Sequence record: PZ445511.1
Reading direction: 5' to 3' (one strand)
Length of the DNA: 64,000 nucleotides
From: a phage
Shown: positions 95 to 6,908 of the stretch, piece after piece
Layout of the letters: each line of letters starts with the position of its first letter
Position numbering within the stretch: position 1 is the first letter of the stretch
Notes under the pieces: generated by a model
The model's database searches: none
The model's input: the letters and a program-made list of their open reading frames with translations, nothing else
Told to the model about the DNA's origin: nothing
Translations under genes and position numbers: made by a program

Positions 95-2662
95 TCAAGC
101 ACCTAAAATCCTTTTCACATTATCCAGATCTTTACATACAGCAATAAACTTATCATCCTTGTACTTGCTGTGGTCTGGATGCTCTTTATCCATTGCAGCT
201 AACTTCTTATACTCGAAATCTGCATCGAGTAATACACCCTTAACATAACGAGTATATTCATCATCATCAATACAAGCGATTGATGGGTGTTGCTTCTTCA
301 TTTTACCACAAGAGTAGTCACGAGAACCACCTTTTTCAGAGTCAGAATCAATACCGATTGGGCAGCCAGGGATACTAATACCACGATCCTTCTGGATGTT
401 ACGAATCAGAATCTCGTTATACTGATCGATCAGATCTTCACGTACAATGGCAACCACGGAGTCGTGAACCAACATGACGATCTTCATCTCTTTTCCTAGA
501 CCCAAGGACAGGATTTCTTCATCAGCATCAATAGCCCCTAACAGGAGACTATCAGAAGATGCAGACTGAATGATTGCGTTAAATCCAGAACGGATTTCTT
601 CACCCTGAACACCACGATCTTCGGAATGGATGTTATGCAGACGACGCTTACGACCAAAGTGACTATAGATGAATCCAAAGTTCTTGATCTGATCGTGGCA
701 CTTATCAATCCAACGCTTAAGCTGAGGGAACTGACCGAAGTAAGTTTCGATATAGTCCTTCGCATCTGCAACGGTACATTCAACAAACGGTTCGCCTGTC
801 TTAGCGGCCTGTTCCAGAAGAGCTTCGTTAACAGAGTGAGCTACTTTCGCTGGGCCAGAACCATACAGAATACCGAAGGTAATTGCCTTAGCAGCCTGAC
901 GCAGAGCTGGGAACAGCTTCTTAACATCACGTGGTTCACAAGTCAGTTTAAATACCATGTGCGCGATGTTTGAGTGGAAGTCAGGATATTTATCAGGCTC
1001 ATTCTTCATGTTGATAAATACTTGTTGCATATTTCTGTCACCAGACAGAACAGCAGCATAGTAAACTTCCGCAGTTGTTAAGTCCCATGCGATTACACGG
1101 TATCCAGGAGGAGCTACTACACAACCCTTGATAATAGACTCATCACGTGGTAACTGTTGCAGGTTCAGCTTACCAGAAGAACTCAGACGACCAGAAGTAG
1201 TCATGTGTTCGTGGAAGCCGGTACGAATGCAACCATCTGCATCGATGCTCAGAAGAATCTTCTCAACATAAGTAGAGATCAGCTTAGTCAGCTTACGAAT
1301 CTCTAGCAGAGTTTTAGCAATCGGGTGCTGAGTTGCTAGTTCGTTCAGAGCTTCTGCGTTTGTAGAATCTGCACCTGTATCCGTCAGTTTACCAGTTGGA
1401 GTCAAACCAACATAATCAAACAGAAGAACACGGAGTTGCTTAACAGAGTTCGGGTTAAACGCTTCGTTCTGATCCTTCTCCAGCTGAACGACTTCTGGAT
1501 AAGTATACAGCTTCTCACGAGCCATATTTAATCGATGTGTCAACTGATACTGAGCTTCTTTCAAGCGATCAACGGAAATCGGTACACCACGATCTTCAAC
1601 ACGTTGCAGGAATACACAACCAGGCATCAGAACTTCGTAGTATAGACTGCAAAGCTTTTCGTTCTTCTCAATTTTTGGTAAGAAGAAGTTATGCAGACGC
1701 AGAGTAGCATCGGTATCTTTTGCAGCATATGGCCACATAATATCAAAAGGAATCAGATCATAGCTGAAATCCTCTTTTTTGATCTTATGTGCCTTGCAAT
1801 AATCATCCTTGAACTTATCCAGTTCAAAGTCATAGTCACCCATGTCAGTGTACTTCATAGCCAGAGATTTCAAGCCGTGAGTACCACGACGTTCATCGAG
1901 AACATAGTGTTGTAACATGGTATCGTGAAGTCTACGCTCTTTATGCGCTTTCTCAAAGGAAAGTCCTAGATGATAGGAATAAAAGTGCATATCGAACTTC
2001 AAGTTATGAAAAACGATCTGATGATTCTTGCTATCCAGAATTTTCTGGAGATAATGTACAGCTACTTCGGTGATGCTGTCAGAGTCAATATAGACACCCT
2101 GATACTCTTGGTGAGACATAGAAACACCAAGAAGATAACCATCACGAGCATACAGAGCTGAGGTTTCGGAGTCGAATGCGATAGGTCCGATAACCATGTT
2201 ATACACCATCTTGATGTATTCTTCAGCTTCGTCTGGATCAGTAATAGGACGATAATCACCAGCTTTTGCAATCTTCTCACGACCATTAATAATGTCGTGA
2301 ATACTTTCAACAGTAGCATCGAAAACTGGTTTCATTTCAGGTTTAAAGTGTAGCTGAGCTGGACTAATACTTGCAATCCAGTTGGCATAGCCACCATGCT
2401 CTACACGTTTACCAGTATAATCACCGATACCTTTCTTACCTGCGAAATACAGGAAAGGTTCAGCACCGACTAGCACAACAAAATCGTAATCGTTCGGATC
2501 GAACGGGTTATCTGGAGTTCCGATTGTAATATGCTTTTTCAGCAAACGACCAGATAACTTCTCGTTACACATATGGAATACATCAACTTCCTCACCATAA
2601 AGCTGGAAGTGTTTATCATAACGAGTGTTATTTAGAGCTTTATCAACTACTGCAATTTTCAA
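95..2662 (-). CDS. Family A DNA polymerase with 3'-5' exonuclease domain (T5-type replicative polymerase)
   Basis: 855 aa; Exo I motif FDSETSAL, motif B KAITFGILYGSG, motif C LVHDSVV; strong SD aaggag before ATG. Confidence 0.95.
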   Translation of the reverse strand: MKIAVVDKALNNTRYDKHFQLYGEEVDVFHMCNEKLSGRLLKKHITIGTPDNPFDPNDYDFVVLVGAEPFLYFAGKKGIGDYTGKRVEHGGYANWIASISPAQLHFKPEMKPVFDATVESIHDIINGREKIAKAGDYRPITDPDEAEEYIKMVYNMVIGPIAFDSETSALYARDGYLLGVSMSHQEYQGVYIDSDSITEVAVHYLQKILDSKNHQIVFHNLKFDMHFYSYHLGLSFEKAHKERRLHDTMLQHYVLDERRGTHGLKSLAMKYTDMGDYDFELDKFKDDYCKAHKIKKEDFSYDLIPFDIMWPYAAKDTDATLRLHNFFLPKIEKNEKLCSLYYEVLMPGCVFLQRVEDRGVPISVDRLKEAQYQLTHRLNMAREKLYTYPEVVQLEKDQNEAFNPNSVKQLRVLLFDYVGLTPTGKLTDTGADSTNAEALNELATQHPIAKTLLEIRKLTKLISTYVEKILLSIDADGCIRTGFHEHMTTSGRLSSSGKLNLQQLPRDESIIKGCVVAPPGYRVIAWDLTTAEVYYAAVLSGDRNMQQVFINMKNEPDKYPDFHSNIAHMVFKLTCEPRDVKKLFPALRQAAKAITFGILYGSGPAKVAHSVNEALLEQAAKTGEPFVECTVADAKDYIETYFGQFPQLKRWIDKCHDQIKNFGFIYSHFGRKRRLHNIHSEDRGVQGEEIRSGFNAIIQSASSDSLLLGAIDADEEILSLGLGKEMKIVMLVHDSVVAIVREDLIDQYNEILIRNIQKDRGISIPGCPIGIDSDSEKGGSRDYSCGKMKKQHPSIACIDDDEYTRYVKGVLLDADFEYKKLAAMDKEHPDHSKYKDDKFIAVCKDLDNVKRILGA

Positions 2663-2724
2663 ATTTAGTCTCCTTTTGGTAAGTAAGTATAACTTCAGTG
2701 TTTCTTCTCTAACTTACCAATATA

Positions 2725-3615
2725 TTATACCAAATCTTTGAGCGATTCGGCAACTAAAATTTCAATACGTTGAGCCAACATATCGATCTCTTCTTTATTT
2801 AAATCACCTGGGTCTTTGCCTTCTGGAAGAAGGAAGTTACCAACTATAGGTGTTAAACGTGTTTTTGTACGAATTAGCTTCGCTAGTGCTTGGGCAGCTT
2901 TATTACCAGAGGCATCATTATCTAGCAAGATAACAACTACTCTTACTCCAGCAATAATGTAAGGACTAAACTTATCCGCAATGTTATCAGATGTAAACTG
3001 ATGTGTACCAAAGCAGCAAGAAGCATAATCTACACCATTGTCTTCTAGATTTAACATATCAAAGATACCTTCAACTAGAACAAGAACTGGTGTATTATAT
3101 CGTACAGGGAAAATCGGTGGTGAAACTTGTTTTGGTTTTACTAAGTATTTAGGAGGGGCAGAACTGTTTATAGAACGTCCCAGGAATAGGATATTGCGTC
3201 CAACAGCATCTGTTATTGGGAATACAATTCTGCCTTCCCAGTCTGCTTGATGTTGGAAAGCAAAATATTTCTTCAAGGTCTTAGAACTGATACCTCGGAA
3301 ATCACCTTCGAAAAGGTAAGCAGATTCAGGAATTGCAAGATTCGTAGATCCATTCCTAATCTCTGAAATCTTTTTACGTACTTGTGACAATCTTGGGGAC
3401 TGTCTGTACTGAGTCTCATTAAAATAATGGTAAATGCTCGGTATTCCTCTACCGAAGCCACAGCTCAAGCAATGCATAATACCTGATTCAGGATCAATAC
3501 GCAAGCTTGGGTGTTTATCATCATGATCTGGATTGAGACAACAGATGAGGATGTCCCCACCTGTGTCTTTGTATTCAATGCCTTTCAGATCAAGTAGTTC
3601 TGTTATTCTACTCAT
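2725..3615 (-). CDS. DnaG-like DNA primase
   Basis: 296 aa; N-terminal zinc-binding CxxH...CxxC region, TOPRIM-like EGxxD and DxD motifs (VLVEGIFDML, LLDNDASG). Confidence 0.8.
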   Translation of the reverse strand: MSRITELLDLKGIEYKDTGGDILICCLNPDHDDKHPSLRIDPESGIMHCLSCGFGRGIPSIYHYFNETQYRQSPRLSQVRKKISEIRNGSTNLAIPESAYLFEGDFRGISSKTLKKYFAFQHQADWEGRIVFPITDAVGRNILFLGRSINSSAPPKYLVKPKQVSPPIFPVRYNTPVLVLVEGIFDMLNLEDNGVDYASCCFGTHQFTSDNIADKFSPYIIAGVRVVVILLDNDASGNKAAQALAKLIRTKTRLTPIVGNFLLPEGKDPGDLNKEEIDMLAQRIEILVAESLKDLV

Positions 3616-5135
3616 ATATCGCTGGCCTGTTCACCTGTTGAATTTTCAGCTTTGTCTTTCTTAGCACGTTTAGGTTGAGCTGGTTTATCCTTTTCAATAG
3701 GAATAACGAACTCAGCTTCCATTTGCGCAATATCTTCCATTGCTAGGTTGGTAGTGTTATCCATTCGCAGAGTTTCCCAGTTCATCTTAGGCATAAACTT
3801 CACACTATCAGAGGAACGAGTCTTAACGAAGTCAAACATAATAGCACCTTGACCATTATCAGCTTTTGCAGCATTAAGATTAGCAGCCATATCTGCGGAA
3901 TCAAGAATCCCTTTAGACATACGCGTTCTACCATCTTGGTCAATCTGATAAGGAGCAACACCAGCCACGTTATGTTTCTGGCAGATAGATTTGAAAGACG
4001 AACTAACAACCATCTGTTCTTTCCAGTCATACATGTCAATGGTCTTTGAATCTGGAAGTCTTGTTTGGTTAATATAGTCTAGAAGAGCTACAGTAACCTT
4101 ATCACCATACTTAGCAACTAGTTTATTTAATTCTACGTCAACCGTCGTAATAGACAGTTCAGGATCGTAAACGATGATCATAGGAGTGTGAAGTTCATAG
4201 CTTTCAAGGAGTTTACTTTCCATATCATAGAAGTCACTCATTTTAGCCATAGTGTACTGCTTAACGAAACTATCGAAAAGCTCTTCACCACCATTAAACA
4301 TTCTAGCCCTAGTTCTGGCTAATCTCAACAGAGCAGCACCTTCAAGAGTGTTATTACGCATTGCTAATGCAGATACTCCAGCTAACATAGCCAGATTACG
4401 TCTAAACACTTCGTGCTCTTTCATCTCAATTGAGAAATATGGAGCAATGTCTCCATTCAAATATTGCTGAACCTGTATGTTTGAACAGATAATGGATTTA
4501 CCAGTACCACGCCAACCACCAAGCAGTAACGTTTCTGTGCGAGCTAAACCAATTTGAGCGTCGAACTCATTACAAATACCAAGAGCGATCAAGTTCAGTT
4601 TGGTATCTTCTTCTCTCTGGAAAATACGCATTGTGTCCGCGTTGAATACCTTTCCAGTATTCGTTACTTTCTCTTCTAATTTTAAGTGAAGGGAGGCAAC
4701 TCGATTGAGAATTTCTCCCTGATCCAGCATTGTTAAATCTTGAAGCACGTCTGTTTCTAGAAGTTTCAGGAATAGATCCTGTGTATATTCAGCTTCTAGG
4801 ACTTCAAGTGCCTGTTCCATGCTCACTTCTGGAATTTGAGTGTTAGCTAAGACGACAAGAGCTTGAGAAAGGCGGGCGTTCCTATTGGCCTCAAGCATCA
4901 GTGCGTCAATGGACGGCATTGCGTTATATTTCTTATAATAATTCTGGACGGCTTGGTAAATTGAGGAGAAAGCGTCATTAAAATGATCTTTATGCAGTTT
5001 TGAGAATGTTTCCAATGCTATTTGCTTCTGTTCAGAAGCGAGAAGCATCTTCAACACTACAGCTTGCACGTTAAACAAGGTCATTCTCCTTTGCACGCTT
5101 TCGTGCCTTCTAAATGCAAAAAGGGGAAGGAGCAT
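3612..5135 (-). CDS. DnaB-like replicative DNA helicase
   Basis: 507 aa; Walker A-like GGWRGTGKS; 4-nt overlap (ATGA) with primase gene; start could instead be the internal Met at 5084. Confidence 0.8.
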   Translation of the reverse strand: MLLPLFAFRRHESVQRRMTLFNVQAVVLKMLLASEQKQIALETFSKLHKDHFNDAFSSIYQAVQNYYKKYNAMPSIDALMLEANRNARLSQALVVLANTQIPEVSMEQALEVLEAEYTQDLFLKLLETDVLQDLTMLDQGEILNRVASLHLKLEEKVTNTGKVFNADTMRIFQREEDTKLNLIALGICNEFDAQIGLARTETLLLGGWRGTGKSIICSNIQVQQYLNGDIAPYFSIEMKEHEVFRRNLAMLAGVSALAMRNNTLEGAALLRLARTRARMFNGGEELFDSFVKQYTMAKMSDFYDMESKLLESYELHTPMIIVYDPELSITTVDVELNKLVAKYGDKVTVALLDYINQTRLPDSKTIDMYDWKEQMVVSSSFKSICQKHNVAGVAPYQIDQDGRTRMSKGILDSADMAANLNAAKADNGQGAIMFDFVKTRSSDSVKFMPKMNWETLRMDNTTNLAMEDIAQMEAEFVIPIEKDKPAQPKRAKKDKAENSTGEQASDI

Positions 5136-5148
5136 AGCCCCCTCCCCT
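5118..5148 (-). terminator. Rho-independent terminator after the 255-aa gene; helicase ATG sits in its loop
   Basis: On minus transcript a 9-bp GC-rich stem (aggggaggg/ccttcccct) followed by UUUU. Confidence 0.5.
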
Positions 5149-5166
5149 TAGGTTTAATTTACCAGA

Positions 5167-5934
5167 TTATTCAGCAGCCGCAGCTTTTGCATCCAGTTTA
5201 GCACGCTTAGCGGCACCATCATAGTCCTTAGCAACCAGACCACGACGAGACAGCATAGATTTAACACCGCGCTCAGACTTACCAGTTTTCTCAGCGATCT
5301 CAGCAACAGTCATGTTAGCCAGATCCAGACCTTCTAACAGATCTTCACGAGTTTTAGCACTTGAAGTTTCCTGTACCGGCATAGCAGCGATACGACCTTC
5401 ACGAAGCAGGCTCAGAGCTTTACCACGGATCTGCTTAATATTGCGACCGAAGTGAGCAGCGATAGCTTCAATAGTAGCACCAGCAACAACCTGATTAACG
5501 AAATCAGTTTCTTCGTCAGGAGTGAAGGAACGAACAGCAGCAGTTTTTTCAGTTGGCTTAACAGAAGCAGTCATTTCCAGACTCAGGATCTTACCCTGTA
5601 CCTGCTTAGCACCGAACTGACCACCAGCTACAGCAGCAGCGATTTCAGCGTAAGTATACTGACCAGCATGAGCGTTCAGGAAATCAACCAGTTCAGCTTC
5701 CTGTTCAGGAGTCCACGGGGATTTCTGTACTTCGTTAGCTTTCTGTACTTCGAAACCTTCTTTACGCAGCTTAGAGCCAACAGAGCGAGCGGTAACGTCT
5801 TTACCAGTCTCGGTAGCCAGTTCAGCAGCGATAGCAGCTACTTGTTCTTGAGAGATTACAGCAACACCCAGAGCAGTGGCTTTTGCTTTCAGAGACTCGG
5901 TTACACCTTCTACGTTCCAGTTCAGTTTAGACAT
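5167..5934 (-). CDS. Putative DNA-binding replication protein (possible T5 D5-like)
   Basis: 255 aa, Ala/Lys/Glu-rich with internal repeats; sits between ligase and helicase genes; identity inferred from position only. Confidence 0.4.
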   Translation of the reverse strand: MSKLNWNVEGVTESLKAKATALGVAVISQEQVAAIAAELATETGKDVTARSVGSKLRKEGFEVQKANEVQKSPWTPEQEAELVDFLNAHAGQYTYAEIAAAVAGGQFGAKQVQGKILSLEMTASVKPTEKTAAVRSFTPDEETDFVNQVVAGATIEAIAAHFGRNIKQIRGKALSLLREGRIAAMPVQETSSAKTREDLLEGLDLANMTVAEIAEKTGKSERGVKSMLSRRGLVAKDYDGAAKRAKLDAKAAAAE

Positions 5935-6709
5935 TATTATTTTTCTCCAATAGTTCTTTAATCGACAGGATTTCTATCCCATTCGTTTCGGCTTTCTTAT
6001 AAGATGAGGAAGAACGTTTTGATTCATCCTCACAGATTAGGTATTTGACGTCTTTGGTAACGGACTTCTTGACCGTATATCCTAGACTTTCTAAATAGTT
6101 TGTTGCATCCGTTCGATTTGCAAAATCTTGCAAAGATCCGGTAATACAGATCGTGATTCCATTTGGCTGGGCAACTAAATCATCTGTAATGATGATGTCA
6201 GCTTTAGCACCTCGGATACCAGTTGAGAATTTCCACGGTAATTCAATAACATCCTTGCCTTGTGGGGAATTTAGCCAGGTTTTGTAATTTTCTCCAGCCT
6301 TGCCGTCAGCCTTCACATCGTGGAAGCTAGTGCAATTTTGGGACAGTTTCTTTGCTGCAACCTCTCCAATAAGAGGAATTCCTAAAGAACCGAGAACTGA
6401 ACCAAAGTCAATGTCTCCGCGAACCTTAGTATTTAACTCGCTAATCAATTTAGCGGCAACCTTGCTACCCACAGCTCCGACCAAATCTTCTTCGGTCAGG
6501 TAAAACAGTTCTGAGATCTTAGTCAGCTCCAGCTTCTCAATAGTTTTCGGGCCAAAGCCCTTTAACTTCATTTTTGTGCAGAAGTTCTCGATTAACTTAC
6601 TTGATTGCGCTGGACAGTTGGACTTATTCCTACAGAATAATTGCCCGTTGACAAGATCTAGCTTAGAACCACAAGAGGGACATTGTGTTGGAATTTCGAT
6701 TTTCATCAA
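5927..6709 (-). CDS. ligB: NAD-dependent DNA ligase, C-terminal subunit (Zn finger, HhH, BRCT)
   Basis: 260 aa; zinc-finger CPSCGSKL...CRNKSNC at N-terminus, HhH-like and BRCT-like C-terminus; separate ORF from adenylation domain. Confidence 0.8.
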   Translation of the reverse strand: MMKIEIPTQCPSCGSKLDLVNGQLFCRNKSNCPAQSSKLIENFCTKMKLKGFGPKTIEKLELTKISELFYLTEEDLVGAVGSKVAAKLISELNTKVRGDIDFGSVLGSLGIPLIGEVAAKKLSQNCTSFHDVKADGKAGENYKTWLNSPQGKDVIELPWKFSTGIRGAKADIIITDDLVAQPNGITICITGSLQDFANRTDATNYLESLGYTVKKSVTKDVKYLICEDESKRSSSSYKKAETNGIEILSIKELLEKNNNV

Positions 6710-6736: not shown

Positions 6737-6765
6737 ATTATAGCAAGTATTTAAGCATTTAGCAA
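6737..6765 (-). promoter_or_regulatory. Sigma70 promoter for ligB (minus strand)
   Basis: Reverse complement reads ttgcta-17bp-tataat followed by conserved atttatataaattga leader. Confidence 0.6.
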
Positions 6766-6908
6766 CTACAATTTTAACTAACTTTGCTTACCCTCGCCAT
6801 AACTTTCTATCCCTCAACTGAATGATAATAGTATATACCTAAGCGGCGAAAATGTCAATAACCACTTTATAATTCCGACATGGTAAATGGGTAGCAAAGG
6901 GTTACGAA

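What the first reader, a model, noticed from the sequence alone, without database searches (positions are those of the whole stretch)
5118..5148. Helicase start codon embedded in the loop of a terminator hairpin
On the minus-strand transcript a 9-bp GC-rich stem plus U-tract ends the upstream gene, and the helicase ATG (5135) with its SD lies within this hairpin. Terminator formation would occlude helicase translation initiation, suggesting coupled attenuation.
Basis: inference. Interest (0 to 1): 0.4.

Follow-up and report, generated by a model that had tools for sequence, protein, structure and literature searches.

The report
Ordinary terminator; helicase start mis-called
The hairpin is a real, conserved transcription terminator after the abundant D5 gene of a T5-like phage, but the ATG in its loop is almost certainly not the helicase start; the helicase most likely begins about 57 bases downstream at its own ribosome-binding site, so this is ordinary operon design plus a common annotation error.

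Summary
The window is a T5-like phage, 100% identical here to Salmonella phage S147. On the minus strand a 13-bp hairpin (5149-5121, loop UAU, -22.4 kcal/mol) followed by a U-tract lies 17 nt after the D5 stop codon. It is the strongest terminator-like hairpin in the 64 kb, and no shuffle comes near it. An equivalent hairpin plus U-tract follows D5 in 14 Demerecviridae lineages. In the structure alignment of 12 of them, 12 of 13 stem pairs carry compensatory changes, so the terminator reading is well supported.

The ATG at 5135 does sit in the loop, with GGAGG in the 5' arm. It is in frame and open only in the T5 group. Every other lineage has an in-frame stop between the hairpin and a conserved N-terminus M-[F/Y/I]-N-[V/T]-Q, which aligns with TTG 5078 (AGGAG 5090-5086, 7-nt spacing, the same design as the pol gene). 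Opening the site at 5135 costs about 24 kcal/mol, against about 10 for 5078 or 5084. No antiterminator partner exists, and a terminating D5 ribosome cannot reach the stem.

The translational "coupled attenuation" idea is therefore not supported. The likely effect is transcriptional: only read-through from the P-K28 promoters supplies helicase and primase. At least one public record already annotates this layout. Interest is low.

The parts
5167..5934 (-). D5 gene (255 aa DNA-binding/late-transcription factor); stop TAA at 5169-5167
   Evidence: ORF list. Same length and position as T5.118 D5 in NC_005859 and as D5 in phage Seafire. Pfam sigma-70 region 4 / HTH hits.
5121..5149 (-). Terminator hairpin: 5' arm 5149-5137, loop 5136-5134 (UAU), 3' arm 5133-5121; 13 pairs, -22.4 kcal/mol
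   Evidence: Strongest such hairpin in the window, unmatched by shuffles. Conserved with covariation in relatives. The antisense strand folds at only -14.6 kcal/mol.
5112..5122 (-). U-tract UUUUUGCAUUU (its first two U are the last two stem bases)
   Evidence: At least 5 T in the 8 nt after the stem in the relatives scanned.
5133..5135 (-). Loop ATG: start of the longest ORF (507 aa). Used by most public annotations but probably not a real start
   Evidence: Opening cost 23.9 kcal/mol. In frame and open only in the T5 group.
5141..5145 (-). SD-like GGAGG inside the 5' arm, fully paired
   Evidence: Sequence, structure. Annotated as the RBS in phage Seafire.
5093..5106 (-). Mini-hairpin GCACG-AAAG-CGUGC, 2 nt upstream of the helicase SD; role unknown
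   Evidence: -5.8 kcal/mol, z = -3.1. Positional analogues in 8 lineages, but whole spacers are not better than shuffles.
5086..5090 (-). Shine-Dalgarno AGGAG of the helicase
   Evidence: Sequence. Annotated as the RBS in phage Lindwurm. It lies 7 nt before TTG 5078 and 1 nt before ATG 5084.
5082..5084 (-). ATG 5084, alternative start (M-T-L-F-N...), too close to the SD
   Evidence: No equivalent codon in Pantoea, Klebsiella, Serratia, Proteus or Vibrio relatives.
3612..5078 (-). DnaB-like replicative helicase D6, best-supported CDS, starting at TTG 5078-5076 (488 aa)
   Evidence: Pfam DnaB_C. N-terminus aligns with the ATG/GTG/TTG starts of 13 lineages. Lindwurm annotates this start.
6737..6858 (-). 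Two strong sigma-70 promoters upstream of ligB (equivalents of T5 P-K28b and P-K28a) that drive ligB-D5 and, by read-through, helicase-primase
   Evidence: 11/12 and 10/12 matches. T5 reference annotation.
2724..2753 (-). Next promoter downstream, in front of the DNA polymerase gene
   Evidence: TTGCCG-18-TATAAT with TG. A promoter is annotated at the same place in T5.

Best explanation
The hairpin plus U-tract at 5149-5112 (minus strand) is a canonical intrinsic (Rho-independent) terminator. It closes the very strongly transcribed early unit P-K28a/b -> ligB -> D5. Most transcripts end here, giving a stable 3' hairpin on the D5 mRNA. A fraction of polymerases read through and supply the only mRNA for the DnaB-like helicase D6 and the primase, which have no promoter of their own. 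The helicase is translated from its own ribosome-binding site downstream of the terminator: AGGAG 5090-5086, start most likely TTG 5078, possibly ATG 5084. The ATG in the loop and the GGAGG in the 5' arm are by-products of the purine-rich stem and the conserved GC-UAU-GC apex. They are locked in a -22 kcal/mol helix and happen to be in frame only in the T5 group, which leads gene callers to over-extend the ORF by 19 codons. Shown here: the structure, its conservation and covariation, the conserved N-terminus, and the absence of promoter-like sites or an antiterminator. Inferred: actual termination, partial read-through, and the resulting dosage difference.
For: 1. The structure is strong and non-random.
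2. A hairpin of -13.7 to -24.3 kcal/mol with a T-tract follows D5 in 14 lineages: T5 group, Kenya-K42, Enterobacter KKP_3711, Klebsiella Sugarland, L036, L034, Serratia Kamaji, Pantoea AAS21, Proteus phage 2, three Vibrio phages, Aeromonas AhSzw-1 and Shivani.
3. In a structure-guided alignment of 12 of them, 149 of 150 cells are canonical pairs and 12 of 13 pairs show double-sided changes. Slid controls give 55-83% canonical and 3-6 pairs.
4. Kenya-K42 keeps all 13 pairs while changing the putative peptide (L2P).
5. The sense strand folds at -22.4 and the antisense at -14.6 kcal/mol, so this is an RNA-level, strand-specific element.
6. The HNH cassette that replaces the spacer in Shivani, L037 and L027 brings its own terminator and gives the helicase an ATG exactly at the TTG 5078 position.
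7. Every non-T5 lineage has an in-frame stop 3-60 nt upstream of the conserved start. The loop ATGs in Vibrio 70E35-1 and KKP_3711 are out of frame.
8. Opening cost is 23.9 kcal/mol for 5135, 10.7 for 5084 and 10.1 for 5078.
9. The pol gene in the same gene cluster uses the same design, AAGGAG + 7 nt + TTG.
10. No promoter-like site lies on the minus strand between 5934 and 5078. The T5 reference annotates P-K28b/a before ligB and the next promoter only before pol.
11. Phage Lindwurm annotates a terminator, an RBS at the equivalent of 5090-5086 and the helicase start at the equivalent of 5078.
Against: There is no transcript-end or read-through measurement for T5 at this site; none turned up in the literature searches. 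The U-tract is interrupted (UUUUU-GCA-UUU), so termination efficiency is unknown. About three quarters of annotated T5-like records, including RefSeq T5, start D6 at the loop ATG, though these are automatic longest-ORF calls. TTG 5078 and ATG 5084 cannot be told apart by sequence alone. The intergenic region is invariant within the T5 group, so no dN/dS test of the extension was possible there.
Confidence: 0.85

Rival explanations
1. One reading: the helicase really starts at ATG 5135 with GGAGG as its SD. Terminator hairpin formation occludes this site, so transcription termination and helicase translation are coupled.
For: ATG 5135 is in frame, opens the longest ORF and has a perfect GGAGG 5 nt upstream. 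Most annotations use it.
Against: The extension is absent or closed by stops in all other lineages. HNH-cassette relatives lack it altogether. The site costs about 24 kcal/mol to open. There is no antiterminator or other alternative structure. The D5 stop codon lies 17 nt before the stem, so a terminating ribosome does not melt it (geometry, inference). The Kenya-K42 changes preserve the pairs rather than the peptide.
Confidence: 0.03
2. Two isoforms: a minor long helicase from ATG 5135 and a major short one from TTG 5078 / ATG 5084. This would parallel the two in-frame products of T7 gene 4 (own knowledge).
For: Both starts are in frame and each has an SD-like motif. The reading frame is open and invariant in more than 400 T5-group records.
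Against: The invariance covers the whole 125-nt region, including non-coding spacer, so it is not evidence for coding. The long form is not conserved outside the T5 group. The hairpin should reduce initiation by many orders of magnitude.
Confidence: 0.03
3. The hairpin is mainly an mRNA-processing or stability element (a 3' stabiliser after endonucleolytic cleavage, or a nuclease site) rather than a site where RNA polymerase stops.
For: Any stable 3' hairpin protects against 3' exonucleases (own knowledge). The interrupted U-tract could make termination weak.
Against: A U-rich tract directly after the stem is retained in all 14 lineages. That is the defining requirement for termination, not for stability. 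A 13-bp stem is short for RNase III (own knowledge). The two roles are not exclusive.
Confidence: 0.07

Closest known systems
Intrinsic (Rho-independent) terminators placed inside operons to step down expression of distal genes, e.g. the rplL-rpoB attenuator of E. coli (own knowledge)
   Same: GC-rich hairpin plus U-tract after a highly expressed gene. The distal genes have no promoter of their own and depend on read-through.
   Different: Termination efficiency and read-through were not measured here. No regulatory factor is known or implied.
The same element as annotated in Escherichia phage Lindwurm (OK143207.1) and its functional counterpart in Salmonella phage Shivani (NC_028754.1)
   Same: Lindwurm has the identical sequence, annotated as a terminator, with the RBS and helicase start equivalent to window 5090-5086 and 5078. 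Shivani annotates a terminator right after D5.
   Different: Lindwurm marks the terminator on the opposite strand. Shivani's hairpin has a different sequence, brought in with an HNH cassette. RefSeq T5 and about 74% of sampled records annotate no terminator here and start D6 at the loop ATG.
Translational control by RBS sequestration in a hairpin (e.g. ermC leader, MS2 replicase start; own knowledge)
   Same: An SD-like motif and an AUG are buried in a stable hairpin.
   Different: The buried AUG is not the conserved start. No alternative conformer or trigger exists. It works neither like these systems nor as a member of them.
T7 gene 4A/4B, two in-frame starts giving two helicase-primase isoforms (own knowledge)
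   Same: Two in-frame candidate starts at the 5' end of a phage replicative helicase gene.
   Different: The upstream start here is structurally blocked and not conserved.

Membership tests
Intrinsic (Rho-independent) terminator | Stable GC-rich stem (roughly 5-14 bp) with a short loop (3-8 nt) | tested here: met
   13 pairs, 8 G-C, loop of 3 nt, -22.4 kcal/mol, z = -3.2.
Intrinsic (Rho-independent) terminator | U-rich tract immediately 3' of the stem | tested here: met
   UUUUUGCAUUU, counting the two basal U. At least 5 T in 8 in this window and in all 14 lineages.
Intrinsic (Rho-independent) terminator | Lies downstream of a stop codon on the coding strand, out of reach of the terminating ribosome | tested here: met
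   The D5 stop is at 5169-5167 and the stem begins at 5149, a 17-nt gap. The sense strand folds 7.8 kcal/mol better than the antisense.
Intrinsic (Rho-independent) terminator | Structure, rather than sequence, maintained in relatives | tested here: met
   149/150 canonical cells, and 12/13 pairs with compensatory changes across 12 lineages. Slid controls are much lower. The alignment was fitted to the model, which favours the structure somewhat.
Intrinsic (Rho-independent) terminator | RNA polymerase actually releases the transcript at the U-tract | not testable with these tools
   Needs in vitro transcription or Term-seq. No such data for T5 were found.
Translation start regulated by hairpin sequestration / translational coupling | The sequestered AUG is the true, conserved start of the downstream gene | tested here: not met
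   The conserved N-terminus M[FYI]N[VT]Q aligns with TTG 5078. All other lineages have in-frame stops upstream, and other loop ATGs are out of frame.
Translation start regulated by hairpin sequestration / translational coupling | An alternative structure or an upstream ribosome can open the hairpin | tested here: not met
   The best upstream partner for either arm gives -12.4 kcal/mol, against -23.7 for arm-arm pairing. The stop codon is 17 nt before the stem.
Ribosome-mediated transcription attenuator (leader-peptide type) | A leader ORF overlapping mutually exclusive terminator and antiterminator helices | tested here: not met
   No antiterminator. The upstream ORF is the full-length D5 gene, not a leader peptide.

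The most novel reading that the evidence does not exclude
The three features between D5 and the helicase could form a tuned dosage module for helicase and primase: the terminator, the small GC hairpin 2 nt upstream of the helicase SD (5106-5093), and a weak TTG start. The mini-hairpin could serve as a protein-binding translational operator, in the manner of the T4/RB69 gene 43 operator. The loop AUG could give a trace long isoform when the hairpin is melted. The absolute invariance of the 125-nt region in more than 400 T5-like genomes would then reflect several overlapping constraints.
Probability: 0.07. Interest if true: 0.4.

Novelty: already known. Interest (0 to 1): 0.1.

Why it matters
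The main value is practical. The D6 replicative helicase of T5 and of most T5-like phages, RefSeq T5 included, is probably annotated 19 codons too long, with the extra residues (MLLPLFAFRRHESVQRRMT) being translated terminator RNA. Anyone cloning or modelling D6 should start at (M)FNVQ. The work also documents that a terminator after D5 is a conserved feature of the early replication gene cluster across Demerecviridae. This implies that helicase and primase are made from read-through transcripts at a lower level than D5. It does not open a new mechanism.

Tried and rejected
- An Rfam scan of 4950-5300 gave only chance hits (E about 0.7, far below gathering scores).
- A PDB sequence search with the long helicase gave no hit, so no experimentally defined N-terminus is available.
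- Literature searches for T5 transcript maps, terminators or the D6 N-terminus turned up nothing site-specific.
- A plain MAFFT alignment of the hairpins was out of structural register. It was replaced by a covariance-model alignment with my own pair count on the D5-downstream rows.
- A dN/dS-type test of the 17-codon extension within the T5 group was impossible, because the region is invariant.
- The phage INF11 variant, with three homopolymer deletions that would shift the frame of the loop ATG, was dismissed as probable sequencing error. Its genes are fragmented in the record.
- The antiterminator search found only a -17 kcal/mol partner about 150 nt downstream. That sequence is transcribed too late to matter.
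- The mini-hairpin upstream of the SD recurs by position, but the spacers do not fold better than shuffles, so it is left as a side observation.

Full report
**Identity of the region.** The window is a T5-like phage. Bases 3600-6000 are 100% identical to Salmonella phage S147 (Epseptimavirus) and 94-99% identical to several hundred Tequintavirus and Epseptimavirus genomes. All genes here run on the minus strand:
- ligB, 5927-6709
- D5, 5167-5934 (255 aa, HTH / sigma region 4-like)
- a DnaB-like helicase (T5 D6), whose longest ORF is 3612-5135
- primase, 2725-3615
- DNA polymerase, 95-2662

The minus-strand RNA reads ...GAAUAA(stop, 5169-5167)-17 nt-AAGGGGAGGGGGC-UAU-GCUCCUUCCCCUU-UUUGCAUUU...
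- The stem has 13 pairs (5149-5137 with 5133-5121; 8 G-C, 3 A-U, 2 G-U) and a 3-nt loop. It folds at -22.4 kcal/mol alone (z = -3.2).
- A and U of ATG 5135-5133 are loop bases, and the G pairs with C5137. GGAGG at 5145-5141 lies in the 5' arm.
- I scanned both strands of the 64 kb for hairpins followed by a T-rich tail. This one is the strongest (-22.6 kcal/mol in a 34-nt frame). Ten dinucleotide shuffles never reached -18.
- The antisense strand folds at only -14.6 kcal/mol, because the two G-U pairs become A-C mismatches. The element is therefore read as RNA on the gene strand.

**It is a conserved terminator.** I collected the D5-helicase junction from relatives in IMG/VR and GenBank phages.
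- Fourteen lineages carry a hairpin of -13.7 to -24.3 kcal/mol with at least 5 T in the next 8 nt, starting 10-25 nt after the D5 stop. They are the T5 group, Kenya-K42, Enterobacter KKP_3711, Klebsiella Sugarlandvirus, L036, L034, Serratia Kamaji, Pantoea AAS21, Proteus phage 2, Vibrio KIT04, Chester and 70E35-1, Aeromonas AhSzw-1 and Shivani.
- The sequences differ widely but keep a purine-rich 5' arm and a pyrimidine-rich 3' arm.
- A covariance model built from four equal-geometry hairpins found the others. On the 12 D5-downstream rows, 149 of 150 cells are canonical pairs and 12 of 13 pairs show changes on both sides. With the 3' partner slid by 1-3 columns the figures are 55-83% canonical and 3-6 pairs. 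The alignment was model-fitted, which helps the structure somewhat, but the margin is large.
- Kenya-K42 differs from the window by four substitutions in the stem. They keep all 13 pairs (A-U to U-A at pair 7) while changing the would-be peptide (Leu2 to Pro).
- In Shivani, L037 and L027, a 633-nt cassette with an HNH endonuclease gene replaces exactly the 89-nt spacer. It brings its own terminator directly after D5. This suggests that a terminator after D5 is itself under selection.

**The loop ATG is not the helicase start.**
- The helicase N-terminus is conserved as M-[F/Y/I]-N-[V/T]-Q-A-V-V-L-K. This aligns with the window's TTG 5078 (L/fMet-F-N-V-Q).
- Start codons at that position are ATG in Klebsiella, Serratia, Enterobacter, Proteus, Vibrio and the HNH-cassette T5 relatives, GTG in L036, and TTG in Pantoea and the T5 group.
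- Every lineage outside the T5 group has an in-frame stop 3-60 nt upstream of it. In the cassette phages TAG lies two codons upstream.
- ATGs also occur in the hairpin apex of Vibrio 70E35-1 (same GC-UAU-GC apex) and KKP_3711, but both are out of frame with the helicase (by my reading, the KKP_3711 one stops after 8 codons). The ATG is therefore a by-product of the apex sequence.
- Making -15..+12 single-stranded costs 23.9 kcal/mol for 5135, 10.7 for 5084 and 10.1 for 5078.
- AGGAG (5090-5086) lies 7 nt before TTG 5078 but only 1 nt before ATG 5084. By established spacing rules (own knowledge) this favours 5078.
- The polymerase gene in the same gene cluster uses the same design, AAGGAG + 7 nt + TTG.
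- Phage Lindwurm's curated annotation has a terminator, an RBS equivalent to 5090-5086 and a helicase start equivalent to 5078.
- In an evenly spaced sample of 57 annotated T5-like records, 42 still place a CDS over the terminator and 15 do not. RefSeq T5 uses the loop ATG and annotates no terminator there.

**Why the coupled-attenuation model fails.**
- If the terminator acts, the helicase message is not made. If it is read through, the hairpin still forms and the loop ATG stays buried.
- No upstream sequence can compete for either arm. The best duplex is -12.4 kcal/mol, against -23.7 for the arms. The only better partner lies about 150 nt downstream and is transcribed too late.
- The D5 stop codon is 17 nt before the stem, beyond the reach of a terminating ribosome (inference from ribosome footprint size, own knowledge).

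**Most likely mechanism.**
- Two strong promoter-like sites lie at 6858-6830 and 6765-6737 on the minus strand (11/12 and 10/12 matches). They correspond to T5 promoters P-K28b and P-K28a upstream of ligB.
- No promoter-like site lies on the minus strand between there and the helicase. The next annotated promoter precedes pol.
- So ligB and D5 are made from abundant transcripts that mostly stop at this terminator. Helicase and primase are translated from the read-through fraction, with a weak TTG start.
- The structure and its conservation are shown. Termination, its efficiency and the dosage effect are inferred.

**Comparison with known systems and novelty.** This is a textbook intrinsic terminator used as an intra-operon step-down. 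All sequence-level defining features were tested and met; only actual transcript release could not be tested. It fails the defining features of RBS-sequestration or leader-peptide attenuation systems. It has no Rfam family, and the helicase has no solved homologue by sequence. The element and the downstream start are already annotated in at least one public record, so nothing here is new in kind. The useful by-product is a correction of a widespread 19-codon over-extension of D6.

**Residual uncertainty.** TTG 5078 and ATG 5084 cannot be told apart by sequence alone. A trace long isoform cannot be excluded. The role of the small hairpin at 5106-5093, and the reason for the complete invariance of 5166-5045 in the T5 group, remain open.

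Noticed in passing
window 5093-5106 (minus strand): A small hairpin, GCACG-AAAG-CGUGC (-5.8 kcal/mol, z = -3.1), sits 2 nt upstream of the helicase SD. A 4-5 bp GC-rich hairpin occurs at the same relative place in 8 enterobacterial Demerecviridae lineages. It is identical in Pantoea AAS21 and has a different, still complementary sequence in Enterobacter KKP_3711 (ACGCA-AGCA-UGCGU). It is absent in the Vibrio phages. Whole spacers do not fold better than shuffles. It could be an RBS insulator, a 5' stabiliser or a translational operator.
   Followed up: partly
window 5045-5166: About 125 nt, from just after the D5 stop to helicase codon ~12, have no variable site in 26 distinct T5-group loci. 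The flanking coding sequence has 2-5 variable sites per 30 nt. 411 of 426 phage records are at least 99% identical over 101 nt. This is stronger conservation than in the neighbouring genes and its cause was not established.
   Followed up: partly
L046 1367-2003; L037 and L027 (Shivani, SHSML-45 type): A 633-nt cassette (own terminator AAGGAGAAC-TTCG-GTTCTCCTT plus an HNH homing endonuclease gene) replaces exactly the 89-nt D5-helicase spacer. It ends at the helicase start codon, which becomes ATG, and the HNH stop overlaps helicase codons 2-3. The invariant spacer may be a homing target.
   Followed up: partly
window 2660-2685 (minus strand): The DNA polymerase gene (855 aa) starts with TTG, 7 nt after AAGGAG. 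This is the same RBS design as proposed for the helicase. A promoter (TTGCCG-18-TATAAT with TG) lies at 2753-2724.
   Followed up: partly
public records of T5-like phages: Helicase start annotation is inconsistent. In an evenly spaced sample, 42 of 57 annotated records, like RefSeq T5 itself, place a CDS over the terminator (loop ATG start). Lindwurm uses the TTG. Pantoea AAS21 uses a GTG inside the mini-hairpin.
   Followed up: partly
window +35387, +20325, -50563 / +50591, +47810: These are other strong terminator-like hairpins with T-tracts (-17.7 to -19.6 kcal/mol). The pair at about 50563/50591 looks like a bidirectional terminator between convergent genes.
   Followed up: no
phage records MG065642.1 and others: Genomes labelled Campylobacter phage and Listeria phage are about 99% identical to Salmonella / E. 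coli T5-like phages in this region. The host labels are probably wrong or reflect contamination.
   Followed up: no
L052 (Aeromonas phage AhSzw-1) and L054 (Salmonella phage INF11): D5 and the helicase are split into several short CDSs in AhSzw-1. INF11 shows homopolymer-length differences in the terminator. Both look like sequencing or assembly errors rather than biology.
   Followed up: no
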